Shown one piece after another: positions 46,792-61,840 of a DNA stretch of 64,000 nucleotides (positions are counted from its first letter, which is position 1; each line of letters starts with the position of its first letter). The notes under the pieces were generated by a model. The model had not been told where the DNA came from, searched no databases, and was given only the letters and a program-made list of their open reading frames with translations. The stretch comes from a virus: positions 76,165-140,164 of the IMG/VR virus record IMGVR_UViG_3300010165_000001; one strand, written 5' to 3'. Made by a program: the position numbers and the translations under genes.

Positions 46792-46803
46792 TCTTAATTT
46801 CTA

Positions 46804-49569
46804 TTATTTAATTGAACCCCAAAGCTTTCCTAAGCCTTGATTTGGAGGAGCTACGCCATTCCATGTACGTATAGGAAGATAATATCTTTTCCCTTTCCAA
46901 GTATAACCTACCCACACTAAAAAATCTTGCAACATAACTTCATCATAATCACAGTAACCTCCTGGTTGGAAGTTATAAGCTACTGGACAACTTCTAAATG
47001 GACCAGTTGTTCTAACTACAATAGGTTGATTACCATTAGTAAATCTAGCTTTCTCACTCATATACCACGTACCATAACTATTACGTTTCCATTTTCCTGC
47101 TACAGTTGATTTAGTATTACTTGCAGAACCTGTTTTATTAGATACAGTAGCTGTTGGTACTTTACCTGCTTGATAAGCTCTGATTTGCTTGATGAAATAA
47201 TCTTTAAGTTTAAGTTGTATTGCTTTTGAAGGTACGCCTTGTGTCACAGGGTCGAAACCAGTGTGTAGTTTCATACTTCTGTGAGGGCAGCTAGTCTGTG
47301 AAAATTCCATATGGAGTCTCACTGTATTACGGTTGGCTTTTAACCCCCACTTATTTAATAAACGTGCAGTTTCTTGAAATGCTGCTTGTTCATTTGCTAG
47401 GAATACTTTATCACTTGCACCAATAGATTGACATATCTCTATACCATAATAATTTTTATTACCATTTTGGTTAGCTGTATGCCATGCTATACGACTTTCT
47501 GGTAGTGCTTGATATACTGTATTACCACTGATATATGAATGAGCTACACCTGCTTCTAATCGAGATAAAGGTGCATTTACTAATCCATTATGATACGCTT
47601 CTGCTGTTGCACCTACACTACCCGCATCATTGTGTAGAACAATGCCTTTAGGTGTATATCCACGATTAGGTAAACGATAACCTTTTACTTCATCACGAAT
47701 ATAAGTTAGTTTTTTAGCTTTTTTCTTAGCTGTTGATTTTTTAGTTGTTGTTTTTTTAGTTGTTGTTTTTTTAGTTGTTGTTTTTTTACTTGGAGTTTTC
47801 GTTTTTGCCTCTTCTTTGTAATATGGTCTAATGAACCATTGAGGAAAATCGTATGTGTGTGTTACTCTTGTTGCTGCTTCCCAACCTGTTCCTCCTTTAG
47901 CTGAACCGCTTGTCCAACCTCCGCCTTGCCAATTCTGGTCAAGACTTACAAACTTCATTAAGTTTCCGTCAGCATTTCCATTTAAAACTATAGATACGTG
48001 ACCATACCCGCCACCGTAGGATGAGTTAAAAATTGCCAAGTCACCTGGTTTAGCTTTAAATGAAGATGTATTATTATATACCTTAGCTATACCTTTAAAA
48101 TTATTTGAGTTAGGTATGTCTTTTGCTCCTACACCTTTAAGACTTAAACCAAATAATTTATTCCAATATTCGTTAGCTAGGTCAAAACACTGGTACCCGT
48201 ACCCGATATGTTTACTAAGAACCCTTTCCATTTATATATTTCTATATAAACTTGTATAAATTCATAGTGATTATTAATTAATCCTTATAGGTTTCCTATA
48301 AGACCAGACTATATCATTATATAGGTTAAATAAATTTAAAAGTATACTTTTTTCCCTCTATGTTTTTACAGAATTCCCTTTTTCCTTCTGCTACTTCTTT
48401 AATATGACTTAGTGTAGCTATATTTAAAGACCTTTTTACCTCAGCCATAGATTTATATTCTTTATTTGTCTCAAAACAATAAAATTTAAGTGTTCCTCTA
48501 CCATCTTTATAATACTTATCATATATATTATACCTTTTTGCTAAAGTTATTACATAACCTAGGTCTACATTATATTTTTTAGATATTTGAAAAGCATTTA
48601 TACCTTTTTTGTAATCTTCTAGTATTTTCAATATATTCATATCTTTACCTTCTATTATAAGTTCTAGTATACTTTCTTTTCTTTTTCATCTATCGAAGGT
48701 AAAATACTCTCTTTTATTGAATCCTCTATATATTTAAAATAACTTTTAGAACAATCGAGTTCAACTAATTTTATATTATTTTCTTCACAATACTGTCTTT
48801 TTTCTTCATCAGATTGTTTAGTATTTTTATAAGAATCTACCCAATTAGAACTAATATTATTTGTATAATGTTGTTCACCATGTGTTTCGATTGCTATGTT
48901 TAGTTTTGGTAAATAAAAATCTATAAATCTATTTTTATTGTGAAGTTTATATTGATGTTCAAATTCTATATCTTTAGTCTTTAAATAAGAATATATAAAT
49001 CTTTCAGGGTAGCTCATGTAGTCTTTACAGTAAGGACAAGAAAAACCATTATTATATAAGTTATGTGCCCGAACCTTCTTTTCATATTTACAAATAGGAC
49101 ATACACAATCTATATACCTATCACTACCTCTACTGTAGTATTTTGCATCATTTTTATTTTTAAAATATTTTAATAAATGTGTTTCATTATAGAGGGAATT
49201 TTCTTTTTTTTACTCTTATGTTTTCACCTTTAAATTTCATTTTACATTTCTCCTATATACTCATCACTGTCCGTCAATTGACGATACTTAGTCGTTGAAC
49301 CTTATTCTTCTTTCACTATATCATGAGAATAAATTAATGTCAATAGTTAATCCAAAGAATCTTGGCTGCTGATTGCCTAATCCTTAGTATTTTTGAACTA
49401 TCACGCTTACCGTTACCAGTTACGTTGTAGTTACTAAGGCTCTAAAGGGTTCCCAGCAATTCAATGAGTTTTACATGGACTCGTAAGTTAATCCATCAAA
49501 ATCTATTTTCTTACCTTCTAAACTTTTGACAAATGCTACTGCTTCTTTTTCTGTGAGTTTTGCAACCAT
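46804..49569 (-). CDS. endolysin (CHAP, amidase_2, SH3b), two exons: 49569-49491 and 48203-46804
   Basis: Exon 1 ([26 protein letters not shown]) starts 1 nt after the holin stop. Splicing gives [23 protein letters not shown], parallel to the phi11-type lysin N-terminus as I recall it. Amidase (HNDAGS...) and SH3_5-like C-terminus follow; predicted length 492 aa. Confidence 0.8.
48326..49240 (-). pseudogene. zinc-finger plus Vsr/PD-(D/E)XK-like homing endonuclease gene broken into three reading frames
   Basis: ATG at 49240 after GGAGA. The frame is lost in an A8 run (49204-49211) and resumes through CPICK...CPYCK into ORF 48664-49017 (DFYLP...IETHGEQH). A stop follows, then ORF 48326-48640 (HTH plus C-terminal DNA-binding module) in a third frame. 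Confidence 0.65.
49315..49343 (-). promoter_or_regulatory. SigA-type promoter inside the lysin intron, upstream of the endonuclease gene
   Basis: On the minus strand: TTGACA (49343-49338), 17 nt, TATAGT (49320-49315), in the shared context ctATTGACATTa. Confidence 0.65.
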
Positions 49570-49570
49570 C

Positions 49571-50128
49571 TTATTTATCATCCCTTTCTAAATTGTCAGG
49601 GTCAATTGTAGTATCTAATGGTGTATCATCATGAAGTTTACTTCCACCTAAAGGTGTACTATCGTCATCTTCATACTCAGAAACATCATATTCTACCTCG
49701 TCTGAATCATCTGTAAAAGGTTCAGAAGTATCGAATTCTTCTGGTTCTTTTTCTTTACGCTCTGGAGCTACATCTGCAAGTGAACTATCATTTTGCCATT
49801 GAACAAATTCGTTAGGGTCTTTATCATTTCTAGGTTTTGTGTAATCAGTTCTTACAATCTCACTATCTTTTGCACCCTTACTGTTAGGGTCTACTGAAAC
49901 ACCTAACAATCCAAGGATTAAGAAAATAAACTCAATAATTTTACTTGAGTTAGCTGTGATATCGTCTACTTGAGCTGATAAGTCTACACCTATTAATCCA
50001 CCGAATGATACAGCAGCACTACCTAAAATACCTACAACACCTGTCCAAAAATAAGGACTACGTACACGTGTAGATAAGTTTTGACCTAAAAATACTTTAG
50101 GCTTTTTCTGTTTAGTATCTTTTGACAC
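49571..50128 (-). CDS. large holin (185 aa), HolTW-like
   Basis: Two hydrophobic segments (WTGVVGILGSAAVSFGGLIGV; IIEFIFLILGLLGVSV) and an acidic C-terminal tail. Immediately precedes the lysin. GTG start after AGGAGTGA. Same length as the published Twort holin. Confidence 0.75.
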   Translation of the reverse strand: MSKDTKQKKPKVFLGQNLSTRVRSPYFWTGVVGILGSAAVSFGGLIGVDLSAQVDDITANSSKIIEFIFLILGLLGVSVDPNSKGAKDSEIVRTDYTKPRNDKDPNEFVQWQNDSSLADVAPERKEKEPEEFDTSEPFTDDSDEVEYDVSEYEDDDSTPLGGSKLHDDTPLDTTIDPDNLERDDK

Positions 50129-50154
50129 TATCTATCACTCCTATAATATTATAT

Positions 50155-50191
50155 AAAAAAATCCATTAAAGACTTTTAATCTTCAATGGAT
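50155..50191 (-). terminator. rho-independent terminator upstream of the lysis cassette
   Basis: ATCCATT/AATGGAT stem plus T7 on the minus strand, after the stop at 50204. Confidence 0.6.
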
Positions 50192-50203
50192 AATATAGCA
50201 ATT

Positions 50204-50389
50204 TTATTCTACTATTGTATTTAATTTTTTAATAATATCGGAAGTCTCTTTTGTATCAAAATCTGATAGACTAACTCCATCAAGGATTTCTAACTTATCT
50301 AATAAGTCTTGTTTGTCTTTAATTTTATCTTCCATTAAACCTTTTACAATTAAACTATTTACATAGTTAGTTTGTTTATAACTAGCCAT
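50204..50389 (-). CDS. hypothetical protein (61 aa)
   Basis: ORF track; overlaps the upstream ORF by 8 nt. Confidence 0.45.
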   Translation of the reverse strand: MASYKQTNYVNSLIVKGLMEDKIKDKQDLLDKLEILDGVSLSDFDTKETSDIIKKLNTIVE

Positions 50390-50618
50390 TTAAAATAACT
50401 TCCTCATTCACTTTTATTTCTTTTAATTTACAATCAATATTAATTACATATTTATATTGACTAATATATTTCTGTGCTAATTCTTTAGTGCTAAAGTAAT
50501 ATTCTTCTTTTGATATAGAAACATTTCCTTCTTCTTTCGAGTTATCTACTTGAATATCAGAAACTTTTTTATACTTAGTTACTTTAAATATACTAAACTT
50601 AGGTAATTTTTTATCCAT
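50382..50618 (-). CDS. hypothetical protein (78 aa)
   Basis: ORF track; AGAGGGGA Shine-Dalgarno-like string upstream of the ATG. Confidence 0.5.
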   Translation of the reverse strand: MDKKLPKFSIFKVTKYKKVSDIQVDNSKEEGNVSISKEEYYFSTKELAQKYISQYKYVINIDCKLKEIKVNEEVILNG

Positions 50619-50639
50619 ATTAAATCCCCTCTCATCAGA

Positions 50640-51860
50640 TAAGTTATATGTAATTTCCTATACATTCGTATAGTTTTCTCCTTTTAATATATGTAAAAGA
50701 GAATTGATAAAGCTTGAAACAGGGGCAATTCAAGACTCGGTATCTCAAGCCATCACTTTATATTCTATGACACTTCTTCTGAATATAAAGCTGTCCGATA
50801 GCTTGTATGTAAGAGAGTTATTGTTAGCCAAGGGGAACTCTCAAAACCCTCAATCACTTTTCACGAACGGAAAGACTTAATGAAAAGTCTAAATTTCAAA
50901 TATACCCTTACCTTTAGTTATTGTTTTATACTGGAAAACAGGGTAAGGACTAAAAAACAGTCATATGTTAAAATGTTTATGTATGGTATGGAGCCCACTA
51001 TTCATCCATACTAATTATTTAAAGTGGGTTTATAGGTATATTACTTCGATTTGTCTGTAGAATGAATCTATACAAAAAACAAAGGGAAAGGAGGATTTAT
51101 ATGATTTAAATTTTGATAACTACAATATCTTTTCATATACCTAGGACTTAATATAACAATAAAAAATGTAAGGAATAAAACGAAGGAATTATTGTTATTA
51201 GATTACTAATGTAATCAAAGCACCTGTTATAACTCATCTCACCGAGAACCTGATTATAAGACCTATTATTAAGTGAATCACTACGCTTGACTCTATTAAG
51301 GAGCTACCTTAAGTCCATCTAACGCAATCCAAAAGGATAATGTGATACTAACATAATAGTTAGTAACGTTCACATGGTTGAAGAAATAATTTATTTGGTT
51401 TCACTTTTATATTTACCAAATATAGTTTTTGAAATGTAGATTTATGCTACTTGTACTGATAACCTCTATTATCAAACACATTTCTGTGCTCCAACTACAA
51501 TAAGTCGTTATAGCGTATCTTCATAGGATTCCGCTAAGACCCTAAGAAGAAGTTAAACTCTAGCTGTTATCATACTCTACAGTCCTTATAATCAAGTACC
51601 AAGTATACCAATCGTATTAAACAATACTCATGACGACCTACCCTACCGATTGACTAATCCGATAGGTTTTAGTTCGTTTGATTATCTTGTACCTTATGGG
51701 TACCAATCCATTATTCAGTCATTATAACAAGTGCTTTCAATACACTAATATTTATGTATGAACAGAGAGAACTTAATCCCTCTGAACATATAGGGTGGGT
51801 ATGTGGTTTAAGTAGTGTATCTCAACTACTTAAGTACATTATAACACATAAGTCCATTTC
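50640..51860. ncRNA. candidate large structured RNA region (1.2 kb, ORF-free); strand and identity unknown
   Basis: No ORF of 60 aa or more in any frame. Visibly less AT-rich than true spacers. Many perfect local stems (for example 50756-50765/50781-50790, 10 bp; 50906-50912/50942-50948) and an interleaved pseudoknot-like pair (50981-50986/51006-51011 with 50994-50999/51023-51028). Confidence 0.35.
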
Positions 51861-51867
51861 TACAAAA

Positions 51868-52170
51868 TCAAATTGACTTCTTCTTTAAACATTGTTGATA
51901 AATCTTATTTAAGTGTCCAGGAAGAGCGTACATTGTAATTAACCTATCTGTATTAAAGTCAAATATATAAATGTTAGATTTATATACTCTGAAGTAACCA
52001 CTCTTATGAATAAACCATAATCTGTCTAAGTATTTCTTAAGTTTTCCTTTACAGTCTCCATGACTTAACCCTTCATCTAACACTTTATCTATTTCATCTT
52101 CTAAATTACTTTTTTTAACACCTTGTCTTTTACGTATTCTTTTCTGTCCATGTTTTGTATAGTTACTCAT
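51868..52170 (-). CDS. hypothetical basic protein (100 aa)
   Basis: ORF track; N-terminal TKHGQKRIRKRQGV and later LITMYALP are faintly reminiscent of DUF4258-type small toxin-like proteins (weak). Confidence 0.5.
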   Translation of the reverse strand: MSNYTKHGQKRIRKRQGVKKSNLEDEIDKVLDEGLSHGDCKGKLKKYLDRLWFIHKSGYFRVYKSNIYIFDFNTDRLITMYALPGHLNKIYQQCLKKKSI

Positions 52171-52184
52171 AATACACCATCTCC

Positions 52185-52394
52185 TTAGTTAAATTGTGCT
52201 TGCCATTGTTCCCAAAAATCATATGACTTATCTTTATTTGTTTCTACAAATCCTGTTGTTGATTGGCATGTAGGACAATACATATGTTTAATGTGTCCTT
52301 CACTTCTTTTCTTAGCTCTTTTTCTAGGAATACTTAAATCAGTTCCGCATTCTTGACATTCTAATTTACTATAAACCATTACTTGTTTTTTCAT
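52185..52394 (-). CDS. zinc-ribbon protein (69 aa)
   Basis: CQEC...CPTC four-cysteine arrangement; first gene downstream of two consensus promoters. Confidence 0.55.
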   Translation of the reverse strand: MKKQVMVYSKLECQECGTDLSIPRKRAKKRSEGHIKHMYCPTCQSTTGFVETNKDKSYDFWEQWQAQFN

Positions 52395-52433
52395 ATTATC
52401 ATTTCCTTTTCTTTAATTTATTTTATATATCTA

Positions 52434-52462
52434 ATTATAATATATTGATTAATGTTTGTCAA
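52434..52462 (-). promoter_or_regulatory. consensus SigA-type promoter P1 for the leftward operon
   Basis: On the minus strand: TTGACA (52462-52457), 17 nt, TATAAT (52439-52434), about 40 nt upstream of the ATG at 52394. Confidence 0.75.
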
Positions 52463-52504
52463 TAACTTTTTTTAATTAATACCTTGAATAATTAGTATAG
52501 TTTA

Positions 52505-52533
52505 ACTATATCTTATAAATCATAATATGTCAA
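52505..52533 (-). promoter_or_regulatory. second SigA-type promoter P2, in tandem with P1
   Basis: On the minus strand: TTGACA (52533-52528), 17 nt, TATAGT (52510-52505). Confidence 0.65.
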
Positions 52534-52693
52534 CACTTATTTAAAAAATATAATAAGTTATTTTATCTAGTATATCTTAATATTTATGTATGTATATGTA
52601 TATAATTAAGTTGTAAAGATTCGCTCTAATTCTTCACTACAATTACTTACTTAAATTAATATATGTTTATTAAGTTTATTTTTATATTGTATA

Positions 52694-52852
52694 TTTATTT
52701 AGTTTTCTGTATATATTATTTAGTTACTTTCTATGTACTCTCTAATTTATTATATATCTTATTCTCTTTTTTAAGTCTATATATTTATTATTTAATTTAT
52801 TTAGTTATTAGATAAGTCTACAGTAAATAATAAGTTATTAATTATTTAGGTT
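52694..52852. repeat. four copies of a TTATTTAG(T/G)T motif in an extremely AT-rich spacer (iteron-like)
   Basis: Copies at 52694-52704, 52715-52725, 52796-52806 and 52841-52852; the first two are 21 nt apart. Confidence 0.45.
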
Positions 52853-52859
52853 ATTTGTT

Positions 52860-53340
52860 TTGTGTTTTATTGGTTTAGGTTTGCGTAGCATTACGGGTAG
52901 ACTTATCCCCTAGGTACAACAGAATTGTAACTAGAAAGATATAATCATAGTGTATAAAATATGTATAGATTACGGTCTAGTGCTAACCTTGTTTTACGTT
53001 AATTCTTGTCCTAACAACCTATACTGCTTCGTTTAGCCTTTAGTTATAATGTTTAAAGAGGGGATAGCTACCGCCCCTCGTGAAGTCTGTATATGGGAAC
53101 AAGGCTCCCCTGTGCAAAGCACAACAAGAAACCTCCCTGACCTTTTTAGTACATTGGTAGTCATCACCAAATCTGGAAATATATGCACCATTGTACTATT
53201 TATTTACATATATACCCATCGAATTTTCATGGTGATGCTCGAAGCTCCGATTTAACTTCATCATTGTCGCTATCCCTACACATCTCACCGTTATGTGTAC
53301 TCATCAGCTCTTTATTTAATTGTTATGTATTTCTAACTAA
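52860..53340. ncRNA. second ORF-free, hairpin-rich block; candidate structured RNA or degenerate intron-like relic
   Basis: GC-rich stems GAGGGG/CCCCTC (53058-53063/53074-53079) and a long-range CATCACCA/TGGTGATG pair (53162-53169/53230-53237). The two track ORFs here lack an RBS. A leftward promoter sits at 53345-53373. Confidence 0.3.
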
Positions 53341-53344
53341 ATAT

Positions 53345-53373
53345 AGTATATCATACTTTTACTAATTTGTAAA
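53345..53373 (-). promoter_or_regulatory. candidate leftward promoter reading into the 52860-53340 block
   Basis: On the minus strand: TTTACA (53373-53368), 17 nt, TATACT (53350-53345). Confidence 0.45.
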
Positions 53374-53467
53374 ATAAAATTAACTATATTTTTTCTAGAT
53401 ATTCACACTATAACATACTTTTTTATCTCTATCAAGTAAAAAAATATATAAAAAATAAAAAATAACC

Positions 53468-53496
53468 TTGACATTAAAAATGATTAATAGTATAAT
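53468..53496 (+). promoter_or_regulatory. consensus SigA-type promoter of the free-standing endonuclease gene
   Basis: TTGACA (53468-53473), 17 nt, TATAAT (53491-53496), then GAGGTGA and the ATG at 53516. Confidence 0.75.
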
Positions 53497-53515
53497 TTAC
53501 TTAGAGGTGATATAA

Positions 53516-54763
53516 ATGAAAAAAATTAATTTTTTATATAAAGAGAATGAAATTGTAAACGAAAGTTTAAAAATAGTAAAACAAACAACAAAGTATTATG
53601 GAAAATATAAAACTAAAGCTTATGAAGTTCAATCTTTAACTTACCCTAAGGCACCTACATATATAATTGCAGAAACATCTTTAAGGAAAGGTGTAAGGGA
53701 TTCGTACGTTTATGGAAACAGGGTTTGTGAGTATAATTCTTTATGGTCGATAAAAAGATTGAGAAAATATATTGTGGATAAGGATAAAGCAAAAACTGTA
53801 CTACCGAGAAGTCACAAAAAAATAAAAGTCAAATGTCTTGAGTGTTCTAATGAAAAATATATAAGAATATCTACATTAACAGATAGAGGGGTAGGTTGTC
53901 ATTTTTGTTCAACTAATATATCCTATCCTGAAATATTTATGATAGCTTATCTACAAGTGAAAGGGATTGAATTTGAATACCAAAAAACATTTAAAGATTT
54001 GACAAATAGAAAATTTGATTTTTATATAAAGAATTTAGGTGTTATAGAAACACATGGAGAACAACATTATAAAAATAATAAAACTTCAACAAAAGAATGG
54101 GAAAATGCTTTTAAAAAAGCAAAAATTTCAGATGAAGAAAAAGAAGAATTTTGTAAAAGTAATAATATTCCTTATATTGTAATAAATTGTGAGAAAAGTG
54201 AATTCGATTATATAAAGAAAGAAATATCTAAATGTCATTATTTAGAAAATATAACAAAAAAAGAAGAAGAAGTAATGTTAAAAACAATAGAAGATAATAA
54301 AAAATATCCTGTTAAAGAGATAATAAAACTATACGAAGAACTAGGAAGCTGTAAAAAAGTAGGTGAAAGATTTAACTTAAGTTCTGATATAATAAGAAAT
54401 GTGTTAAAAAGGAATAATATTATTATTAGTAAAGAAATAAAAAAAGAATACCCTGTTAAAGAAATAATAAAACTATATGAAAAACTGGGAAGTTGTAAAA
54501 AAGTAGGCGAAAGACTTAATTTGAATGAAAATACTATAAGAAATGTATTAAAAAGAAACAAAGTAAAAATAAAAAAGTATAATAATAGTAAAGTTAGGTG
54601 TATAACAACAAACAAGGAATTTAATTCTATTAAAGAAGCTTCAGAATATTATAAAATAAATCATGCTACAAGTATATCTTCGTGTTGTAGAAAAAAAAGA
54701 AAAACAGCAGGAAAACATCCTGAAAGTTTAGAACCTTTAGAATGGGAATATGTAAATGAATAA
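53516..54763 (+). CDS. free-standing homing endonuclease-like protein: zinc finger, Vsr/PD-(D/E)XK-like nuclease, duplicated HTH, C-terminal DNA-binding module (415 aa)
   Basis: CLECS...CHFCS zinc finger. [18 protein letters not shown] core (D...E-x-x-G-x-x-H, DUF559/Vsr-like). Tandem YPVKEIIKLYE(E/K)LGSCKKVGER.NL....IRNVLKRN repeats. C-terminal V.CITTNKEFNSIKEASEYY...ISSCCR.KRKTAG resembles NUMOD-type modules. Confidence 0.65.
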   Translation: MKKINFLYKENEIVNESLKIVKQTTKYYGKYKTKAYEVQSLTYPKAPTYIIAETSLRKGVRDSYVYGNRVCEYNSLWSIKRLRKYIVDKDKAKTVLPRSHKKIKVKCLECSNEKYIRISTLTDRGVGCHFCSTNISYPEIFMIAYLQVKGIEFEYQKTFKDLTNRKFDFYIKNLGVIETHGEQHYKNNKTSTKEWENAFKKAKISDEEKEEFCKSNNIPYIVINCEKSEFDYIKKEISKCHYLENITKKEEEVMLKTIEDNKKYPVKEIIKLYEELGSCKKVGERFNLSSDIIRNVLKRNNIIISKEIKKEYPVKEIIKLYEKLGSCKKVGERLNLNENTIRNVLKRNKVKIKKYNNSKVRCITTNKEFNSIKEASEYYKINHATSISSCCRKKRKTAGKHPESLEPLEWEYVNE

Positions 54764-54777
54764 GTAAAAAAATATAT

Positions 54778-54806
54778 AAAAAATAAGGGTAAACTTAATT
54801 ACCCTT
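54778..54806 (-). terminator. hairpin terminator (T-run on the minus strand) shared by convergent genes
   Basis: AAGGGTAA/TTACCCTT stem (54785-54792/54799-54806), followed on the minus strand by a T-rich run. Confidence 0.6.
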
Positions 54807-54824
54807 ACTTACTTACTTAACATA

Positions 54825-55028: not shown

Positions 55029-55047
55029 TTCATTTTCTCCTTATCAA

Positions 55048-55374
55048 TTATAATTTATTAAACACGAAAGAAATTATTCCACCTATAATTAAAAGTAAAA
55101 CTTTTTCGATAGTGTCTTTCTTTTTATCTTCTTTGGTTGATGTTGAGGTTTTCATTTCTTTAATCAATTCATCTAACCTATCAATTTGAATATATATCTG
55201 TGCTTGCTTTTCTTGTTTAATAGCAATATCTTTATCCAAATCTTTTACAGCATCACTCAATAAATTAACCCTATTTTCCAACTCCTTAAAAGTAGCACTA
55301 TCTATATAACCTTTATCTTGTATATTTTCTTTCAGTGTTTCTACTTTTTGTGACAAGTCTTCATAATTTTCCAC
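55048..55374 (-). CDS. coiled-coil protein with C-terminal transmembrane anchor (108 aa), XhlA-like architecture
   Basis: GTG start. N-terminal heptad-like region and C-terminal VLLLIIGGIISFVF hydrophobic helix. Confidence 0.5.
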   Translation of the reverse strand: MENYEDLSQKVETLKENIQDKGYIDSATFKELENRVNLLSDAVKDLDKDIAIKQEKQAQIYIQIDRLDELIKEMKTSTSTKEDKKKDTIEKVLLLIIGGIISFVFNKL

Positions 55375-55386
55375 TATATAACACCT

Positions 55387-55710
55387 CTAATTCTTTCCAA
55401 GGTGTTTTGATTCTACGTCATAATTTTCTATAAATTTATTTATGACATCATTGTAATCATCACTAATTATTTTTCCATAGGAATTAGTAACATCTATTTC
55501 AAAAGTTAATTTACCATAATCTTTTAAATCTATTTCTTGTATTACTCTCTCAGGGTCTTGAGAAGGTAAAAAATAAAAATCGAAGTTGATAAGTGTACCA
55601 TTAGACATAAGACGGTTTATTCTGTATATGTGATACACATTACGATTTCTGAGAAAGTGCCTAATAGCATCTTTAAATTCTACTTTCAACACATCTCTGT
55701 ATTTAGTCAT
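55387..55710 (-). CDS. hypothetical protein (107 aa)
   Basis: ORF track; co-directional packing. Confidence 0.5.
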   Translation of the reverse strand: MTKYRDVLKVEFKDAIRHFLRNRNVYHIYRINRLMSNGTLINFDFYFLPSQDPERVIQEIDLKDYGKLTFEIDVTNSYGKIISDDYNDVINKFIENYDVESKHLGKN

Positions 55711-55741
55711 TAGTTCTAACCCCCTATTAATTGAATTTGTA

Positions 55742-56008
55742 TTACCTCGTAAAGTATGTTATAATAGTAATAGTAAGAGATATAAGTAAGATTGTTAGGA
55801 TAGATAGTAAAGCTATAGTATTATTTTGCAAAGTTAATATTATAGTGGACACATAGAACAGAAATATTATTATAATAATTAGCCCATATTTTAAAATATT
55901 ATCTGTTCTTTTGAAATATATAGAAGATGATAAATTCCTTGTAACAATGATAAGGCAATAAAGATAAAAGAGAATGATAACTATAGAGATAGAGGTTGTT
56001 AATATCAT
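55742..56008 (-). CDS. small integral membrane protein (88 aa, about 3 TM)
   Basis: Three long Ile/Leu-rich hydrophobic stretches. Confidence 0.5.
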   Translation of the reverse strand: MILTTSISIVIILFYLYCLIIVTRNLSSSIYFKRTDNILKYGLIIIIIFLFYVSTIILTLQNNTIALLSILTILLISLTITIITYFTR

Positions 56009-56205
56009 TCATAACACACCATTCTTAGTCTAGTATAAATACCTAGTAATAATATAACATAGTAGTTAATTACAGTAACGATATAATAGTGCACAACTAA
56101 ATTGTATGTGTTATTTCTATTGTGTTATTATATTAGTAATAGTATCACTAAAAGTTTTTACGTGTGACACACATAAATTAAAATGAATTTAGGTGAAAAA
56201 GAAAT

Positions 56206-56595
56206 ATGAAAGTGAATGAATTCTTTCTTAAACTAATATTAGGAATGGTAGTGTTATTATGCTTTTTATCCTTTGCTGACATTATGGCTCTTACTTTCAG
56301 TATCCGACCATTATCTGTATTAGTTTACGTGAGCGTAGGTGTGTTTGCTTACTATACAGGTAATAAGATACACGAAAAAGTTATACAGAGAAGAGAAGAC
56401 CCTCTACCAGAATATATACTAAGAAAAACAAGAGAAACATCTGAAGAAGTAGAAGTCATGAAAGAATTAATAGAAGAATATGGTATATCAAAAGAGGAGA
56501 TTCGAATGCGAGCTAAAGTTCGTGAGGAGAGTGGAAGAAAACTTGAAAGAAAAGATAAAACTGACGAGGAACAAGTTAAAGAGAAGAGCATCTAA
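56206..56595 (+). CDS. membrane protein (129 aa, 2 TM, charged C-terminus)
   Basis: AGGTGAAAAAG RBS-like string before the ATG; two hydrophobic helices, then a Glu/Lys/Arg-rich tail. Confidence 0.55.
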   Translation: MKVNEFFLKLILGMVVLLCFLSFADIMALTFSIRPLSVLVYVSVGVFAYYTGNKIHEKVIQRREDPLPEYILRKTRETSEEVEVMKELIEEYGISKEEIRMRAKVREESGRKLERKDKTDEEQVKEKSI

Positions 56596-56803
56596 AGTTA
56601 CACACATAAAAAGAGGCGATAAAAGAATATCGAGTTCTTCAAGGGTATGCTCTATTTGTGGGAGAAGCTTATCAACATATGATAAACTAACAGGTAAAGC
56701 CTTTGCTTCACATGACCACCTACACTTAGTTTTCAGTGAAGTATTACAACTAGATATATGTCACAAACTAAGTGATTGTTATAAATACAAGAAAGAGGAG
56801 TGA
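56480..56803 (+). CDS. possible Cys/His-containing small protein; true start uncertain
   Basis: The track ORF overlaps the previous gene by 116 nt. The non-overlapping part (from about 56600) has CSICG...H.H..H...C but no canonical start after the AAGAGG at 56610. Confidence 0.3.
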   Translation: MVYQKRRFECELKFVRRVEENLKEKIKLTRNKLKRRASKVTHIKRGDKRISSSSRVCSICGRSLSTYDKLTGKAFASHDHLHLVFSEVLQLDICHKLSDCYKYKKEE

Positions 56804-56810
56804 TTTACTT

Positions 56811-57242
56811 TTGAAGTCAAGAGTAGATACGATGAGAAACCAACTCAAGCAAAAAAAGCGAGAGAATGAAGATGCTAATGAAGCTATATCCAATGGTTTT
56901 TTAAGTGTCATACAAAAACTTATGATTAAACTAGAAGATAAAGTCGAGCGTGGAGAAATCAATGTAAACGACACAAACGACATCTATAAATTATTAGTCA
57001 TGTACGGACAAATTAGTGAAATGAATGGTAACTCTTCAGGTGGTATGGGTACGCTACCTGCATTAGGAGAAAAAGAACGTGCTGTACTAAGTAACTTCGT
57101 TGAAACTACAGGTGAAGTAGATGAAGACGGAAATGAATATGTGGACTTAGATAAGTTATCTGAAATGACTGCCGATGAGGTAGCAGAAATGGTTACAGAA
57201 AAAGAGAAGCTTATGAATAAACAAAATGCGGAGACATTTTAA
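56811..57242 (+). CDS. hypothetical protein immediately upstream of terL (small terminase candidate by position only)
   Basis: TTG at 56811 lies 10 nt after GAAAGAGGAG. The track GTG at 56772 and the ATG at 56832 are alternative starts. The stop is 2 nt before the terL ATG. Confidence 0.45.
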   Translation: MKSRVDTMRNQLKQKKRENEDANEAISNGFLSVIQKLMIKLEDKVERGEINVNDTNDIYKLLVMYGQISEMNGNSSGGMGTLPALGEKERAVLSNFVETTGEVDEDGNEYVDLDKLSEMTADEVAEMVTEKEKLMNKQNAETF

Positions 57243-57244
57243 TT

Positions 57245-60200
57245 ATGAAAATGGATGGAAAACAATTAAAAGACTTACTCATATCCACATATGGAACTAC
57301 AAATGTTACCCAAGAACAATTAGATTATGTATTAACAATGTCTAGTACTACTGCTTATATGTTGAAACACAATTTAATACGTGGTCATAATATTACTTTT
57401 TCTATACCAAATAGAGATAAAAGTAAAGCTCAAGCTCATAGACCATAAATTTGCTGTGGTCTTTAAACTCTTCTTAAAATTGGAAACTCCTAACGTAAAG
57501 ACGAGGACAATCAATTGCTAAATTGACTTAATAAGTCATAAATGCCTAGAGACTAAAATTACTGGTAAGCTCATAAATGGTTGAGTGTAGAACAGTATAA
57601 GAAAGCTCTTTTTAAGAGAAGTAACAGAAGAGGGTTACTTACCTAAGAAAGTAACTATGAGATAGTCCAAACCCTTTAAATACTAGGAAACTAGGGGTAT
57701 AAAACGGGCAGATTGCCATAATAAATGATAAACACCCTAACATAGCAGTACTTAAATCGAGACAACTTGGATAAAAATTTGTTCAAGTAAAACCTTGTTA
57801 AACAGGGAAACTCCTAACAAGTAAAGTTGAGGACAATCCTGTGCTAAATTCAGTTACTAACTGATAAATGCCGAACGACTAAAATTACTGGTAAGCTCAT
57901 AAATGGTTGAGTGTAGAACAGTATAAAAGATTAATTTCGTAAAGCAAGGGGTTGTATAAACCGTAATTAAAATTATCTTTATACAATCAAGATATAGTCT
58001 AGTCCGTATATAAATATCACGAAAGTGACGGTATAAACGTAAGTGAAGTTGGATACAATAAGATGTTGCATTTTGCAGATACGCATAGTAAAGATTCGGT
58101 CAAGTGTATGTTCACCTTCAAGTAATTAGGGGAGGCTTTATACAGTAATGTATATCGAATAACTCTACTAAAATTGGAAACTCCTAACATGTAATGATGA
58201 GGACAATCAATTGCTAAATTCAGTTTAAACTGATAAATGCCTAACGACTAATCTTCTAGGTAAATATTCAAAAGGGAATATTGAGAACTAGATAAAAGGA
58301 TATTTAATCCGTAACGTAGAGAGTCCTTAACCAAAAATAAGGATTATGATATAGTCTACTCCGACTTTTAATTAAGTGTTAAAATACTAGGAAACTAGCG
58401 GTATACCCTAGACCCGACCAGTGACCAAATGCAGAAATTCGTACAAAGTAGGATAAATCCTACATTGCAACAACCTTATTTTGCAAGCATCATTAACCAA
58501 GATAATGACTCATTAAAATATAAACAAATAAGAAATTCAAGTATGTTCTTTAGAACAAGTTCTACACCTAAAGCTTTAGAGGGTGTTGATATTGATTACC
58601 TTTCCCTAATGTCTGGGGCTTTATACAGTAATGTATATCGAACAACCTTACTAAAATTGGAAACTCTAAACAGGTAAAGCTGTAGACAATCAATTGCTAA
58701 ATTGACTTAATAAGTCATAAATGCCTAACGACTAAGTTTACTAATAGTTATCTAAATGGAGATAATGAGAATAGTATAAGAAAACCTTTAATAGGAAGTA
58801 ACGTAAGGAATCCTTAACCAAAACTAAGGATTATAAGATAGTCTAATCCCTTTAAATACTAGGAAACTAGGGGTAAAAAACTTTAGAGACGAGTATGATA
58901 GAGTACCTTCATCATCAGAATCATCAGCAATGGAATCAATGTCAAGTTCACCTTTCAAGGTTATAAGACGGTGGTCAACACCAACCACACCAAATATGGG
59001 AATTCATAAACTCTATATGCAATCTGACCAATGGTATTATGGTCATAGATGTACACATTGTGATTACTTAAATGAAATGAGTTATGAAGACTATGACCCA
59101 GATAACTTAGAGAAGAGTGGAAATATCCTATTAGTCAATCCTGAAGGTGTTGACGAAATGGCTAAAACAGTGCAAGAAGGAAGTTACCAATTTGTTTGTC
59201 AAAAATGTGGTAAACTTCTAGATAGATGGTATAACGGAGAATGGCATAGTAAGTTTAGTGAAAGAACTAAAGGTGGAAAAGGAACAAGAGGTTATTTTAT
59301 TTCGCAGCTTAATGCTGTGTGGATAAGTGCTTCAGAACTCAAAGAAAAAGAAATGAACACTGAATCAACGCAATTATTTTATAACTATACATTGGGTTAG
59401 AGGAATAGCCCCTTTATACAGTAATGTATATCGAATAACTCTACTAAAATTGGGAACCCCTAACAGATAATGCTGAGGGCAATCAATTGCTAAATATTTA
59501 TTTTAACTATTGACATTACCTAAATAATGATATATAATTAAGATAGATTAAATGCCTAACGACTAAGTTTATAGGTAACTTACTAAATGAAGTAAGGTAG
59601 AACTATAAGAGAAGGTTAACGACCTGTAAAGTAGAGATTCCTTAGTCAAAATTAAGGAATATGATATAGTCTAGTCCGTATATAAATATCACGAAAGTGA
59701 CGGTAGTAACGTTTCCATACGAAGACCAGAAAATGAAAGTATTACAAGAAGATATTTACAACAATCAATCTCCTATTGCTAAGAAACAAATGTTTGATAG
59801 GGGAGATTATAAATTTATCGCAGCATCAGTGGATTGGGGTAATACTCACTGGTGTACTGTACATGGAATGACTGAAGATGGTAAGATAGACCTCATTAGA
59901 TTATTTAATGTTAAACGAAATAAAAACCCTAACATGGTTGAATCGGATATAGAAAAAATACGTGTAGAATTTTCTAAATATAACCCAGATATTATTGTAG
60001 CAGATACAGGAGACTCAGGAAACAACTTACTAAGACTCCAACAATACTTCGGTGAAGATATTGTGTTTGGTTGTACTTACAAATCATCTCCTAAATCTAC
60101 TGGACAAATTAAACCTGTGTTTAACGAGAATTCAAATATTGTTACTGTAGATAAATTGATGCAGAACAAAATTTATATCCAAGATTTAAAAACAGGTAGA

Positions 60201-61806
60201 ATAAGAATTTACCAAGAAAATGATAATGATAAAGCTATACTTCTTAAACATTGGCAAAATGTGGTCATCAGAGATGAAGAAGATAGCAAGACAGAAGAAA
60301 TGTATCAAGTAATCAAGAGAAAAGGTGACGATTTTTTAACACAATGGTCGTCAATAAACAGTGTTAAACGGGCGTAGTAAAATAATGTATAGATAAACAA
60401 TATACTGGTAAGAAACCCTAAACCTGACTATACACAGACAGTGGGAACCTACCGTGCTAAATTTTTAATTTAATTATTGACATTATATTTTTTTAATGTT
60501 ATTATTAAATTAGGATAAAAGCCTAACGACTAAATTTCTAGGTAGGTGTCTAAATGGAGACACTGAGAACTAGATAAAAGACTAAAACAATACAACCCAA
60601 AACAGGAGGTGAACAATAACAAATGACAGCTTTTAATACGGAATGGTTTTTAAATAGAATAAAAGAGGTAAGACCTAACGATTATCATGAATATGAGTTT
60701 TTAACTCCATACACTAAGTCAAGGGAGCCTATGAAAGCTAAACATATACCTTGTGGAAATATTGTAGATATGATACCTAACTCTTTTATAAGTAGAAACT
60801 CATCGTGCCCTATATGCAGTAGAAAATCTTCAACTGAAAAACAAAGAAAGACTCAAAAAGATTTTGAAGCATGGCTTCCTGAAGGTGTTATAAATATGGA
60901 AAAATATAAAGGTATGAATAAAGAAATAACATTTCATTGTTTCTTTTGTGATAGCACCTATAAAGTAAAACCAAGTAACTTAAGGGGTAGCGGTGGAGAA
61001 GGTACTAGATGTTCTAGATGTTCCAATAGATATAATAGAACTATAAAAGAGGTTGAAGATGAAATAAGAATAGAAACTAATGGTAAATACTCTCTAGTAT
61101 CTAAAAAGTATAAAAATGCTAACACTCCTATAGAAGTAAAACACCACGAATGTGGTAAAACTTATATGGTTTCTATGCACAACTTTAGAAAAGGTAGAAG
61201 ATGCCCTCATTGTAATTTGTCTATAGGTGAACAACTTGTAATAAATATATTACAAAAGAACGAAATACCTTATGAAGGTCAGAAAACATTTAAAGACTTA
61301 AGAAAAATAAATAACCTATCTTATGATTTCTATTTACCTGAATATAATGTTCTTATTGAGTATCAAGGAGAACAACACTTTAAACCCATTAAACATTTCG
61401 GAGGTCAAAAATCTTTTGAAGTACAAAAGGAAATAGATAATATAAAAAGGAATTATGCTTATGATAATGGATATAATCTTATAGAAATTCCATACACTTT
61501 AAGAGACCAAGAAGATATTTCCAAATTTTTATTTAAGGAATTAAAAGAAGTGTTTTAGTCGTAACACACTGAATTACTAACCAAAAATAGTAATTATGAT
61601 ATAGTCTAAACCCACTACTCTAAAAGTAGTGTTAAAGTATTACGAAAGTAAGGGTAATATTGCATTATAGTCAAGCAAGTATATATGCGAGAATTGGTCT
61701 ATCACGTCTAGAAGACTTGTACATTAAAAATAATGAAAATGAATTTGATTCTGTATTTATTAATACAAGTTATGAAGACAATAACGAATTCTTTTTAGAT
61801 GATTAA
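57245..61806 (+). CDS. terL: terminase large subunit, seven exons: 57245-57446, 57707-57772, 58040-58117, 58412-58607, 58887-59397, 59712-60332, 61663-61806
   Basis: The exons sum to 1818 nt, giving 605 aa in one frame. Splicing restores LKSRQLG/LSEVG (Walker A-like), IDYLSL/DEYD (Walker B) and RKGDD/HYSQASIYA (nuclease motif). Every 5' exon ends in U and every intron ends in G. Confidence 0.85.
57447..57706 (+). ncRNA. terL group I intron 1 (260 nt, no ORF)
   Basis: P1 pairing: exon AGACCAU with intron GUGGUCU (7 bp, U.G at the splice site). Core GGAAACUCCUAAC, GAGGACAAUCAAUUGCUAAAUU, AAAUGCCUAGAGACUAA. 3' hairpin CUAGGAAACUAG, then GGGUAUAAAACG. Confidence 0.8.
57773..58039 (+). ncRNA. terL group I intron 2 (267 nt, no ORF), splits the Walker A codons
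   Basis: P1 pairing: exon CUUGGAU with intron GUUCAAG (7 bp). Core GGGAAACUCCUAAC, AAAUGCCGAACGACUAA, GAUAUAGUCUAGUCC. Ends ...GACGGUAUAAACG. Confidence 0.8.
58118..58411 (+). ncRNA. terL group I intron 3 (294 nt, no ORF)
   Basis: P1 pairing: exon CCU with intron GGG. P2 module CUUUAUACAGUAAUGUAUAUCGAA is identical to the start of the Twort orf142-I2 ribozyme as I recall it. Core AAAUGCCUAACGACUAA, AUGAUAUAGUCUAC. Ends ...CCCUAG. Confidence 0.75.
58608..58886 (+). ncRNA. terL group I intron 4 (279 nt, no ORF), splits the Walker B codons
   Basis: P1 pairing: exon CCCU with intron GGGG. Same P2 module and the same core strings. Ends ...AACUUUAG. Confidence 0.75.
59398..59711 (+). ncRNA. terL group I intron 5 (314 nt, no ORF but with an internal consensus promoter)
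   Basis: P1 pairing: exon GGGU with intron (A)GCCC. Same P2 module. Its 3' 43 nt are identical to intron 2. Ends ...GACGGUAGUAACG. Confidence 0.75.
59510..59538 (+). promoter_or_regulatory. orphan consensus promoter inside ORF-less intron 5
   Basis: TTGACA (59510-59515), 17 nt, TATAAT (59533-59538), in the same ctATTGACATTa context as the endonuclease gene promoters. The intron core (AAAUGCCUAACGACUA) resumes a few nucleotides downstream. Confidence 0.6.
60477..60505 (+). promoter_or_regulatory. promoter of the intron 6 endonuclease gene
   Basis: TTGACA (60477-60482), 17 nt, TATTAT (60500-60505). AGGAGGTGA precedes the ATG at 60623. Confidence 0.65.
60623..61558 (+). CDS. intron-encoded homing endonuclease-like protein: three zinc-finger modules plus a Vsr/PD-(D/E)XK-like nuclease domain (311 aa)
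   Basis: C..(x)..CPIC, CFFC...CSRC and ECG...CPHC fingers, followed by YDFYLPEYNVLIEYQGEQH, paralogous to 53516-54763 and 48664-49017. Confidence 0.7.
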   Translation: MTAFNTEWFLNRIKEVRPNDYHEYEFLTPYTKSREPMKAKHIPCGNIVDMIPNSFISRNSSCPICSRKSSTEKQRKTQKDFEAWLPEGVINMEKYKGMNKEITFHCFFCDSTYKVKPSNLRGSGGEGTRCSRCSNRYNRTIKEVEDEIRIETNGKYSLVSKKYKNANTPIEVKHHECGKTYMVSMHNFRKGRRCPHCNLSIGEQLVINILQKNEIPYEGQKTFKDLRKINNLSYDFYLPEYNVLIEYQGEQHFKPIKHFGGQKSFEVQKEIDNIKRNYAYDNGYNLIEIPYTLRDQEDISKFLFKELKEVF

Positions 61807-61810
61807 AACT

Positions 61811-61840
61811 AAACCGTAAGTTTAAGGCTTACGGTTTTTA
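61811..61840 (+). terminator. rho-independent terminator after terL
   Basis: AAACCGTAAG/CTTACGGTTT 10-bp stem running into a T-run, 5 nt after the reconstructed TAA at 61804-61806. Confidence 0.8.

What the first reader, a model, noticed from the sequence alone, without database searches (positions are those of the whole stretch)
48326..61558. Three paralogous zinc-finger plus Vsr-like (D...E-x-x-G-E-Q-H) endonuclease genes: not HNH, GIY-YIG or LAGLIDADG
ORFs 60623-61558 (terL intron 6), 53516-54763 (free-standing) and 48664-49017 with flanks (lysin intron) share one to three CxxC...CxxC fingers. These are followed by a block (Y/F)DFY(L/I)...(I/V)IE(T/Y)(H/Q)GEQH and then (E/D)..K...C/A..N.(I/Y). 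That block looks like the DUF559/Vsr-type PD-(D/E)XK fold rather than the HNH enzymes usually reported for staphylococcal myovirus introns (I-TwoI, I-KsaI). The C-terminal DNA-binding modules differ: none in the intron 6 copy, and a duplicated HTH plus NUMOD-like tail in the free-standing copy. So one nuclease core appears to have been retargeted by swapping DNA-binding modules. The closest described family I can name is the EDxHD/Vsr-like intron endonucleases (I-Bth0305I type), but the motif here differs.
Basis: partly seen in the sequence, partly recalled or inferred. Interest (0 to 1): 0.7.

Follow-up and report, generated by a model that had tools for sequence, protein, structure and literature searches.

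The report
Vsr-type homing endonuclease paralogs
A staphylococcal myovirus carries three related selfish "homing" nuclease genes (two inside self-splicing introns, one free-standing) built on a Vsr-type nuclease core rather than the HNH core that databases assign them, and they belong to a large family already recognised in 2009-2025 papers but never tested biochemically.

Summary
The 64-kb window has exactly three copies of one nuclease core. One is in terL intron 6 (gene 60623-61558). One is in a free-standing promoter-plus-gene cassette (gene 53516-54763). One is in the lysin intron, where two frameshifts in A-runs break it into three pieces.

AlphaFold models of two copies give Vsr (1cw0, 1vsr) and I-Bth0305I (3r3p) as the best solved-structure matches. 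Pfam hits are DUF2726, DUF559 and PvuRts1I-N, never HNH. The invariant residues E203, D235, E246, H252, D272 and K275 map onto Vsr E25, D51, F62, H69 and D97.

The DNA-binding modules do differ between the copies. The free-standing copy also carries a recent 144-nt tandem duplication of its HTH module.

The close relative phage PSU4 lacks terL intron 6 and the cassette at exact boundaries, which supports mobility.

Novelty is low. A 2025 NAR paper describes this architecture (CapR/DUF4379-like zinc modules plus an EDxHD/Vsr-like domain) as a large outgroup of homing endonucleases. Another notes the VSR signature in phrog_559 terL-intron proteins. GenBank already labels a Kayvirus homolog "VSR homing endonuclease". 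About 79,000 cluster representatives match. No member has been tested for cleavage.

The parts
60333..61662 (+). terL intron 6, a group I intron of 1330 nt. The upstream exon ends in U (60332) and the intron ends in G (61662).
   Evidence: The insertion is precise relative to the intron-less terL of phage PSU4 (window 60331/61663 correspond to L001 14790/14792). tblastn with the 184DA TerL defines 7 exons. The R element AGCCTAACGACTAA lies at 60520 and the S element GATATAGTCTA at 61598, on either side of the ORF.
60623..61558 (+). Homing endonuclease gene, 311 aa. It has three roughly 65-aa zinc-ribbon modules (residues 1-70, 71-137, 138-199) and a C-terminal Vsr-like nuclease (200-311).
   Evidence: phrog_559 E=7e-78. 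AF2 pLDDT 90.4. Foldseek PDB top matches are 1cw0, 1vsr and 3r3p, with TM 0.73 normalised to 3r3p. E203, D235, E246, G249, H252, D272 and K275 are invariant in 54 homologs. CapR and DUF4379 each match 36 of 54 homologs.
60477..60505 (+). Sigma-70-like promoter inside intron 6, upstream of the endonuclease gene.
   Evidence: TTGACA-17-TATTAT, 11 of 12 matches with TG before the second hexamer; it is the best site in the region.
53459..54761 (+). Free-standing cassette (promoter, ribosome-binding site and gene), absent from PSU4.
   Evidence: In the blastn against PSU4 the flanks meet at L001 7300-7323.
53434..53458 (.). Left copy of the 25-nt perfect direct repeat AAGTAAAAAAATATATAAAAAATAA that flanks the cassette.
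   Evidence: the repeat finder family D3, 100% identity, spacing 1328. PSU4 has a single copy.
54762..54786 (.). Right copy of the 25-nt direct repeat. It overlaps the last two bases (AA) of the gene's TAA stop codon.
53468..53496 (+). Consensus sigma-70 promoter of the free-standing gene.
   Evidence: TTGACA-17-TATAAT, 12 of 12 matches, ending 20 nt before the ATG.
53516..54763 (+). Free-standing endonuclease gene, 415 aa. Domains in order: beta-barrel (12-57), zinc ribbon (100-132), Vsr-like core (135-240), HTH (266-299), HTH (314-347) and a NUMOD-like beta-beta-alpha tail (360-391).
   Evidence: phrog_4538 E=2e-106. Pfam HTH_23, HTH_28 and DUF4379 reach their cut-offs; I-HmuI_NUMOD-like is weak. 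AF2 pLDDT 90.4. Foldseek top matches are 1vsr and 3r3p, with Tudor/chromo-barrel matches for the N-terminal domain.
54289..54561 (+). Tandem 144-nt duplication (54289-54417 and 54433-54561, 81% identical) that encodes the second HTH module.
   Evidence: the repeat finder family D1. Most homologs are 353-373 aa, which fits a single HTH.
48203..49489 (-). Lysin (CHAP domain) group I intron, 1287 nt. The splice junction restores DFDG-L-YGYQC.
   Evidence: tblastn with the intron-less phiRS7 endolysin. Junction sequences show U at -1 and a terminal G. Q (GGCAATCAGCAGCC), R (GGTTCAACGACTAAG) and S (GATATAGTCTG, 48315) elements are present.
48326..49240 (-). Endonuclease gene in the lysin intron, broken into three pieces. 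Piece 1 is 49240-49187 (17 codons). Piece 2 is 49209-48664 (zinc ribbon plus Vsr-like core). Piece 3 is 48640-48326 (HTH plus NUMOD-like tail). The frameshifts lie in an A8 run (49211-49204) and in the A-rich stretch at about 48690-48667.
   Evidence: Three-frame translation and DNA sequence. Core HMM E=4e-32. The tail matches the C-terminus of phrog_4538 (E=1.4e-10). The reconstruction is collinear with an intact DH2 ORF.
49315..49343 (-). Sigma-70-like promoter inside the lysin intron, upstream of the broken gene.
   Evidence: TTGACA-17-TATAGT, 11 of 12 matches with TG.

Best explanation
The three genes are paralogous homing endonuclease genes of the Vsr-like (EDxHD-related) branch of the PD-(D/E)XK superfamily. 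More precisely, they belong to the large 'outgroup' in which CapR/DUF4379/DUF723-like zinc-ribbon modules precede a roughly 100-aa Vsr-like nuclease.

Proposed mechanism (all steps inferred; cleavage is untested):
1. Each gene is transcribed from its own near-consensus sigma-70 promoter.
2. The protein binds the allele that lacks the element. The terL copy would use three zinc ribbons. The other two copies would use one zinc ribbon plus a C-terminal HTH/NUMOD-like tail.
3. The Vsr-like core cuts or nicks near the insertion site. By analogy with Vsr D51 and H69, D235 would be a Mg2+ ligand and H252 the general base, with E203, E246, D272 and K275 completing the site.
4. During mixed infection, recombinational repair copies the intron plus gene, or the free-standing cassette, into the cut genome.
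5. Group I self-splicing keeps terL and the lysin functional.
6. The occupied allele is immune because the element splits the recognition site.

The lysin-intron copy is a recently inactivated pseudogene, unless the two frameshifts are homopolymer sequencing errors.
For: - Fold: Foldseek top PDB matches for both AF2 models are Vsr and I-Bth0305I, probability 1.0.
- Profiles: DUF2726 matches 12 of 22 core sequences, with further hits to DUF559, DUF5889 and PvuRts1I_N, and no HNH.
- Catalytic residues are invariant and map onto the Vsr and I-Bth0305I residues.
- Introns: canonical P/Q/R/S elements, U at -1 and a terminal G, with the ORFs lying between R and S.
- Mobility: terL intron 6 and the free-standing cassette are absent from PSU4 at exact boundaries, with flanks 92-99% identical.
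- Each gene has its own promoter. This matches the RNA-seq-mapped early promoters of intron endonuclease genes in a Kayvirus (PMC7698491).
- Same-site orthologs at 54% identity occur in Romulus and 184DA.
- The same architecture has been described as a homing-endonuclease outgroup (PMC12350094).
- The VSR signature of phrog_559 terL-intron proteins has been noted (PMC11878797).
- GenBank labels a homolog 'group I intron-associated VSR homing endonuclease'.
Against: - No member of this outgroup has been shown to cleave DNA.
- Sequence-only searches do not link it to solved Vsr-type structures. hmmsearch of the core profile against PDB finds only a weak DUF559 hit (3hrl, E=0.77) and not 3r3p or 1vsr.
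- The hhalign E-values are only 0.003-0.004, and the histidine aligns one residue off.
- There is no divergent co-conversion tract next to intron 6. The flanks differ only at positions -1 and -4.
- The 25-nt direct repeat around the free-standing cassette is not what classical homing leaves behind.
- One of the three copies is frameshifted.
Confidence: 0.85

Rival explanations
1. They are HNH (His-Me finger) homing endonucleases, as PHROG 559 and many GenBank records name them and as I-TwoI and I-KsaI are described.
For: PHROG 559 is labelled 'HNH endonuclease'. Homologs in Alsa_3, SA11 and S25-3 are annotated as HNH.
Against: There is no HNH-family Pfam hit at E<=1 in any copy, nor at E<=0.001 in any of 91 homologs. 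The predicted core is an alpha/beta Vsr-like fold. The cysteine/histidine clusters are separate N-terminal zinc ribbons, not a beta-beta-alpha-Me site. The 184DA lysin-intron protein labelled 'HNH' does not match the core HMM.
Confidence: 0.02
2. They have the same fold and family, but act as monomeric site-specific nickases like Vsr itself (and like the HNH nickases I-HmuI and I-TwoI). They would not be dimeric double-strand cutters like I-Bth0305I. Homing would then start from a nick that replication converts into a break.
For: Vsr is a nickase (established knowledge; PMC3239194). The three tandem, non-identical zinc modules of the terL copy suggest an asymmetric site bound by a monomer. AF2 pTM of 0.47-0.63 with high pLDDT suggests flexibly linked modules.
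Against: The one characterised relative, I-Bth0305I, is a homodimer that cuts across a 14-bp pseudopalindrome. Nothing here tests oligomeric state.
Confidence: 0.35
3. The nucleases mainly serve competition between phages or defence, by cutting the genomes of co-infecting relatives. Alternatively, they are decaying relics with no current activity, and the presence/absence pattern reflects ordinary recombination.
For: One copy is frameshifted. The free-standing cassette is flanked by a 25-nt direct repeat, which suggests recombination or duplication rather than clean homing. There is no divergent co-conversion tract.
Against: The two intact copies keep every invariant catalytic and zinc ligand. 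Their promoters are intact. The insertions sit exactly at an intron site and at an intergenic site that 184DA has also had colonised by a 39%-identical homolog. That pattern is typical of active homing endonucleases. Competition and homing are also not mutually exclusive.
Confidence: 0.1

Closest known systems
CapR/DUF4379/DUF723-like zinc modules plus EDxHD/Vsr-like nuclease: the 'large unrecognized outgroup of EDxHD/Vsr HEGs' (NAR 2025, PMC12350094). It corresponds to PHROG 559, whose VSR signature in terL introns of Bastillevirinae was noted in PMC11878797.
   Same: The terL intron 6 protein has exactly this layout: three roughly 65-aa zinc modules and then a roughly 110-aa Vsr-like domain. 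It sits in a group I intron of terL.
   Different: The free-standing and lysin-intron copies (PHROG 4538) have only one zinc module and add C-terminal HTH and NUMOD-like modules. The free-standing copy also has an N-terminal beta-barrel. That layout is not described in the passages I read.
I-Bth0305I and the EDxHD family (Dassa 2009, PMC2677866; Taylor 2011, PMC3239194; PDB 3r3p)
   Same: Both have a Vsr-like core. The residues E...D(FYL)...IExxG..H...D..K correspond. Both are encoded in phage group I introns or as free-standing inserts. Both have a modular build with separate DNA-binding domains.
   Different: I-Bth0305I has N-terminal NUMOD/HTH repeats and no zinc ribbons. Sequence similarity is too low for HMMER to connect the two. 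There is a one-residue loop difference before the histidine.
E. coli Vsr and the DUF559/DUF2726 cellular nucleases (PDB 1cw0, 1vsr, 3hrl)
   Same: The fold and the active-site positions are the same.
   Different: Vsr recognises a T:G mismatch, has a zinc site inside the nuclease domain and intercalating Trp residues, and is a housekeeping repair nickase. The proteins here are mobile-element proteins with separate DNA-binding modules.
I-MsaI, the Kayvirus terL-intron protein, annotated 'group I intron-associated VSR homing endonuclease' in MT786458
   Same: It belongs to the same family (35% identity over 98% of the terL copy), sits in the same host gene and has the same three-module layout.
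   Different: It occupies a different intron site in terL. A 2017 paper called it 'a protein of unknown function' (PMC5618024).

Membership tests
EDxHD / Vsr-like homing endonucleases | Vsr-type restriction-endonuclease-like fold of the catalytic domain | tested here: met
   For AF2 models with pLDDT 90, the Foldseek PDB top matches are 1cw0, 1vsr and 3r3p (probability 1.0; TM 0.73 and 0.58 normalised to 3r3p).
EDxHD / Vsr-like homing endonucleases | Composite catalytic motif: a Glu in helix 1, the metal-binding Asp, the general-base His and the downstream Asp, plus an acidic residue at the Vsr Phe62 position | tested here: met
   E203, D235, E246, H252 and D272 are invariant. hhalign places them at Vsr E25, D51, F62, W68/H69 (one residue off) and D97, and at I-Bth0305I D196, the IExxG glutamate, W212/H213 (one residue off) and the D..K aspartate.
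EDxHD / Vsr-like homing endonucleases | Statistically significant sequence similarity to family members | tested here: inconclusive
   The core profile against PDB gives no hit to 3r3p or 1vsr at E<=10, and 3hrl (DUF559) only at E=0.77. Pairwise hhalign E-values are 0.003-0.004. Pfam hits go to DUF2726, DUF559 and PvuRts1I_N, mostly below their gathering scores.
EDxHD / Vsr-like homing endonucleases | N-terminal NUMOD/HTH DNA-binding region followed by a C-terminal nuclease | tested here: not met
   The N-terminal region here consists of zinc ribbons. Where HTH and NUMOD-like modules are present, they lie C-terminal to the nuclease.
EDxHD / Vsr-like homing endonucleases | Site-specific cleavage next to the insertion site of the element-free allele | not testable with these tools
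   This needs protein expression and cleavage assays.
CapR-like module plus Vsr-like outgroup (PMC12350094) / PHROG 559 | Three to five tandem modules of about 60 aa related to CapR, DUF4379 or DUF723 | tested here: met
   The terL copy has three modules with (H/C)xxC...CxxC ligands. CapR and DUF4379 each match 36 of 54 homologs. phrog_559 E=7e-78. The other two copies have only one module each.
CapR-like module plus Vsr-like outgroup (PMC12350094) / PHROG 559 | C-terminal domain of about 100 aa distantly related to EDxHD/Vsr | tested here: met
Homing endonuclease gene (functional class) | Presence/absence polymorphism at an exact site between close relatives, located in a self-splicing intron or an intergenic site | tested here: met
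   PSU4 lacks intron 6 and the cassette at exact boundaries. Group I elements and splice-site rules are satisfied.
HNH / His-Me finger endonucleases | Beta-beta-alpha-Me catalytic motif (HNH profiles) | tested here: not met
   No HNH-family Pfam hit in any copy (E<=1) or in 91 homologs (E<=0.001). The fold is Vsr-like.
GIY-YIG and LAGLIDADG endonucleases | The family's catalytic domain profile | tested here: not met
   No such Pfam hit.

The most novel reading that the evidence does not exclude
The tandem zinc-ribbon (CapR-like) modules, and the HTH modules that can be added, may act as independent readers that each contact a short stretch of DNA. Specificity in this family would then evolve by gaining, losing or duplicating modules. 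This one genome would capture that process: three architectures on one core, plus a duplicated HTH module still 81% identical at the DNA level. If so, the family would be a natural modular, re-targetable nuclease scaffold. In addition, the 25-nt perfect target duplication around the free-standing cassette could point to an insertion route other than classical double-strand-break homing.
Probability: 0.15. Interest if true: 0.65.

Novelty: new member of a known kind. Interest (0 to 1): 0.3.

Why it matters
It corrects a widespread mis-annotation. PHROG 559 and many GenBank records call these proteins HNH endonucleases. It also shows that in Twortvirinae the terL-intron endonucleases are Vsr-type. 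The family is very large (about 79,000 cluster representatives at E<=0.001), occurs in phages and giant viruses, and has no biochemically characterised member. A genome with three differently built paralogs, and with defined element-free target sites in a 96%-identical relative, is therefore a convenient system for the first cleavage and specificity studies. It does not reveal a new kind of element.

Tried and rejected
- Rfam, at gathering thresholds and in E-value mode, found no group I model hit for the lysin or terL introns. I established intron identity instead from exon collinearity, precise absence in relatives, splice-site rules and P/Q/R/S elements.
- Sequence searches of PDB with single proteins and with the full-length profile gave only zinc-finger noise. 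The core-only profile gave a weak DUF559 hit.
- NCBIfam gave nothing for the nuclease.
- I looked for a divergent co-conversion tract beside intron 6. There is none, only two synonymous differences at -1 and -4.
- I tested whether flanking direct repeats are a general feature of free-standing cassettes of this family, using 184DA and S25-3. They are not.
- I tested whether zinc modules diverge faster than the core. They do in every comparison (18-44% vs 38-62%, except module 3 at 55-61% in same-site orthologs). This does not separate same-site from different-site relatives cleanly.
- I considered HNH, GIY-YIG, LAGLIDADG and I-Ssp6803I-type assignments and rejected them on the profile and fold evidence.
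Full report
**Context**

The window comes from a Staphylococcus myovirus of the Twortvirinae. Its closest relative in the phage collection is vB_SurM-PSU4 (Baoshanvirus), at 95.8% identity over 67% of positions 46000-64000.

**Observation**

The three ORFs exist as described. Their paralogy is beyond chance:
- Lysin-intron core vs free-standing copy: 46% identity, E=3e-28.
- terL copy vs free-standing copy: 38% identity over the zinc finger plus core, E=2e-10.
- terL copy vs lysin copy: 30% identity, E=4e-10.
- The 104-aa ORF at 48326-48640 matches the HTH/NUMOD-like tail of the free-standing protein and the C-terminus of phrog_4538.

An HMM of the nuclease core, searched against every stop-to-stop frame of the 64 kb, finds these three loci only (E=1e-44, 4e-32, 1e-27). 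The next hit has E=1.6.

**Genomic setting: terL**

tblastn with the TerL of phage 184DA shows that terL here is split into seven exons. The last intervening sequence is 60333-61662. Evidence that it is a mobile group I intron:
- PSU4 lacks it exactly: window 60331/61663 correspond to PSU4 locus 14790/14792.
- The upstream exon ends in U and the intron ends in G.
- The classical group I R element (AGCCTAACGACTAA, 60520) and S element (GATATAGTCTA, 61598) flank the ORF. This places the ORF in the P8 region.

**Genomic setting: lysin**

The lysin gene is interrupted after codon 26 by a 1287-nt intron (49489-48203, minus strand). Splicing restores DFDG-L-YGYQC. The intron carries Q, R and S elements, again with the ORF between R and S.

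**Genomic setting: free-standing copy**

The third copy is a cassette at 53459-54761 that PSU4 lacks. It brings a perfect TTGACA-17-TATAAT promoter and a ribosome-binding site. It is flanked by a 25-nt perfect direct repeat, of which PSU4 has one copy.

The two intron-borne genes also have near-consensus promoters (11 of 12 matches, with TG) inside their introns. RNA-seq in a Kayvirus mapped early promoters in front of intron endonuclease genes in the same way (PMC7698491).

**State of the lysin-intron copy**

It is a single gene broken by two frameshifts, one in an A8 run and one in an A-rich stretch. A 305-aa reconstruction aligns in one tblastn piece over its whole length (55% identity) to an intact 304-aa ORF in the lysin region of phage vB_SpsM-DH2. 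It is therefore a recent pseudogene or the product of homopolymer sequencing errors. I cannot tell which.

**Fold and family**

- Pfam gives no HNH, GIY-YIG or LAGLIDADG hit for any copy or for 91 homologs.
- The core gives weak-to-moderate hits to DUF2726 (12 of 22 core sequences, best E=4e-8), DUF5889, DUF559, PvuRts1I-N and MTES_1575. By established knowledge these are all Vsr-like PD-(D/E)XK families. DUF559, DUF2726 and Vsr are grouped together in PMC3424549.
- AlphaFold2 models of the terL copy and of the free-standing copy both have mean pLDDT 90.4.
- Foldseek against PDB puts E. coli Vsr (1cw0, 1vsr) and the I-Bth0305I catalytic domain (3r3p) at the top for both models, with probability 1.0.
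- The residues E203, D235, E246, G249, H252, D272 and K275 are invariant in 54 full-length homologs, and in the three paralogs plus 19 distant cores.
- hhalign against the Vsr sequence (verified identical to 1cw0) aligns them with E25, D51, F62, G65, W68/H69 (one residue off), D97 and D100.
- hhalign against the I-Bth0305I core aligns DFYL, IExxG and D..K directly, with D235 at D196. For that comparison I restored the wild-type residues, because the crystal construct carried D196A and H213A.

Dassa et al. noted an invariant Glu at the Vsr Phe62 position as a hallmark of the homing branch. E246 is that residue.

**Architecture**

| Copy | N-terminal part | Core | C-terminal part |
|---|---|---|---|
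| terL intron 6 (311 aa) | three zinc-ribbon modules of about 65 aa; ligands HxxC...CxxC, CxxC...CxxC, HxxC...CxxC | Vsr-like | none |
| Free-standing (415 aa) | beta-barrel (Tudor/chromo-barrel-like Foldseek matches), then one zinc ribbon | Vsr-like | two HTH modules and a NUMOD-like beta-beta-alpha tail |
| Lysin intron (reconstructed, about 305 aa) | one zinc ribbon | Vsr-like | one HTH and the NUMOD-like tail |

Sources: for the terL copy; for the free-standing copy; for the lysin copy.

Homologs of the terL copy match CapR and DUF4379 (36 of 54 each). The second HTH of the free-standing copy is a 144-nt tandem duplication that is still 81% identical at the DNA level. Most homologs are about 48 aa shorter. 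In all pairwise comparisons the zinc modules are less conserved than the core. That fits a specificity role but does not prove it.

**How common and how known**

tblastn finds relatives of the terL copy in 503 phage records (Staphylococcus, Bacillus, Enterococcus, Streptococcus, Lactococcus, Escherichia and others). They are variously labelled HNH endonuclease, group I intron protein, hypothetical, homing endonuclease, or 'group I intron-associated VSR homing endonuclease'.

All terL-intron ORFs I checked are this family: two in PSU4, one in 184DA, two in Romulus and one in SAP1. Romulus and 184DA carry 54%-identical orthologs at the same terL site.

A profile search of 1.84 billion cluster representatives returns 78,789 hits at E<=0.001 and 18,933 at E<=1e-30. 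Some of these proteins have up to ten matched stretches. BFVD gives 301 structural matches at E<=0.001, including giant-virus proteins.

The literature already covers the kind:
- The Vsr-like homing family was described in 2009 (PMC2677866).
- I-Bth0305I was characterised in 2011 (PMC3239194).
- The VSR signature of phrog_559 terL-intron proteins was noted in 2025 (PMC11878797).

I found no report of cleavage by any member of that outgroup.

**Mechanism (inferred)**

The proposed sequence of events is:
1. Expression from the gene's own promoter.
2. Binding of the empty allele through the modular DNA-binding domains.
3. Mg2+-dependent cleavage or nicking by the Vsr-like site.
4. Recombinational copying of the element during co-infection.
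5. Splicing of the intron, which preserves terL and lysin function.

What is shown here is the fold, the conserved residues, the intron features, the promoters and the exact presence/absence polymorphism. What is inferred is catalysis, target specificity, and whether the enzyme nicks or makes a double-strand break.

**Points that do not fit neatly**

The free-standing cassette is bounded by a 25-nt perfect duplication. This is not seen around the homologous cassettes in 184DA or S25-3. There is also no divergent co-conversion tract next to intron 6, only synonymous changes at -1 (T here, C in PSU4) and -4.

**Verdict**

The finding is a new set of members of a known, recently described but biochemically untested kind. 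It is useful for correcting annotation and as an experimental entry point. It is not a new class.

Noticed in passing
window 57245-61803: Six group I introns cut terL into seven exons. Introns 1-5 (57447-57706, ~57773-58037, ~58118-58399, ~58609-58887, ~59398-59708) have no ORF, are 260-310 nt long and are about 65% identical to one another. They carry R and S elements and covarying GAAA-tetraloop hairpins. None of them matches Rfam RF00028 even at E=10, although two introns at 35165-35763 (minus strand) score 96 and 75 bits.
   Followed up: partly
window ~59490-59545 (within ORF-less terL intron 5): Intron 5 has an insertion of about 38 nt, relative to introns 1-4, that holds a TTGACA...TATAAT-like promoter (CTATTGACATTACCTAAATAATGATATATAAT). 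It sits at the same structural position as the promoter of the endonuclease gene in intron 6, so it may be a relic of a lost endonuclease gene.
   Followed up: no
window 53434-53458 and 54762-54786: A perfect 25-nt direct repeat flanks the free-standing endonuclease cassette, and PSU4 has one copy that differs slightly. Homologous cassettes in 184DA and S25-3 have no such repeat. Classical homing does not explain a target duplication of this length.
   Followed up: partly
L003 (phage 184DA) 9198-10268, minus strand: 184DA has a 39%-identical homolog of the free-standing gene in the same intergenic interval, between the zinc-finger protein gene and the 67-aa ORF homolog, but on the opposite strand. 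This suggests repeated independent colonisation of that spot.
   Followed up: partly
window 46804-49569 (minus): The lysin of this phage is not the LysK-type lysin of its closest relative PSU4. Its amidase-encoding part is about 82% identical in DNA to siphovirus lysins (phiRS7, IME1354_01), and its N-terminus resembles the phiRS7 CHAP domain. This looks like a module exchange across phage families.
   Followed up: partly
window 46985-47239 (minus): Rfam 'Staphylococcus sRNA 808' (RF02897) matches at 80 bits (gathering score 76) entirely inside the lysin coding sequence. The model was probably built on a prophage lysin fragment, so this is unlikely to be a separate sRNA gene here.
   Followed up: no
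window 52395-53458: This 1.1-kb stretch has no ORF longer than about 68 aa and no tRNA, and it is conserved at about 95% with PSU4. It lies next to the cassette insertion site. Kayvirus RNA-seq work reports long non-coding RNAs near the tRNA region (PMC7698491).
   Followed up: no
window 60329 and 60332: The only exon differences from the intron-less PSU4 allele within 300 nt upstream of intron 6 are two synonymous changes at -4 and -1. The -1 base is U in the intron-containing allele, as the P1 U-G pair requires, and C in the empty allele.
   Followed up: partly
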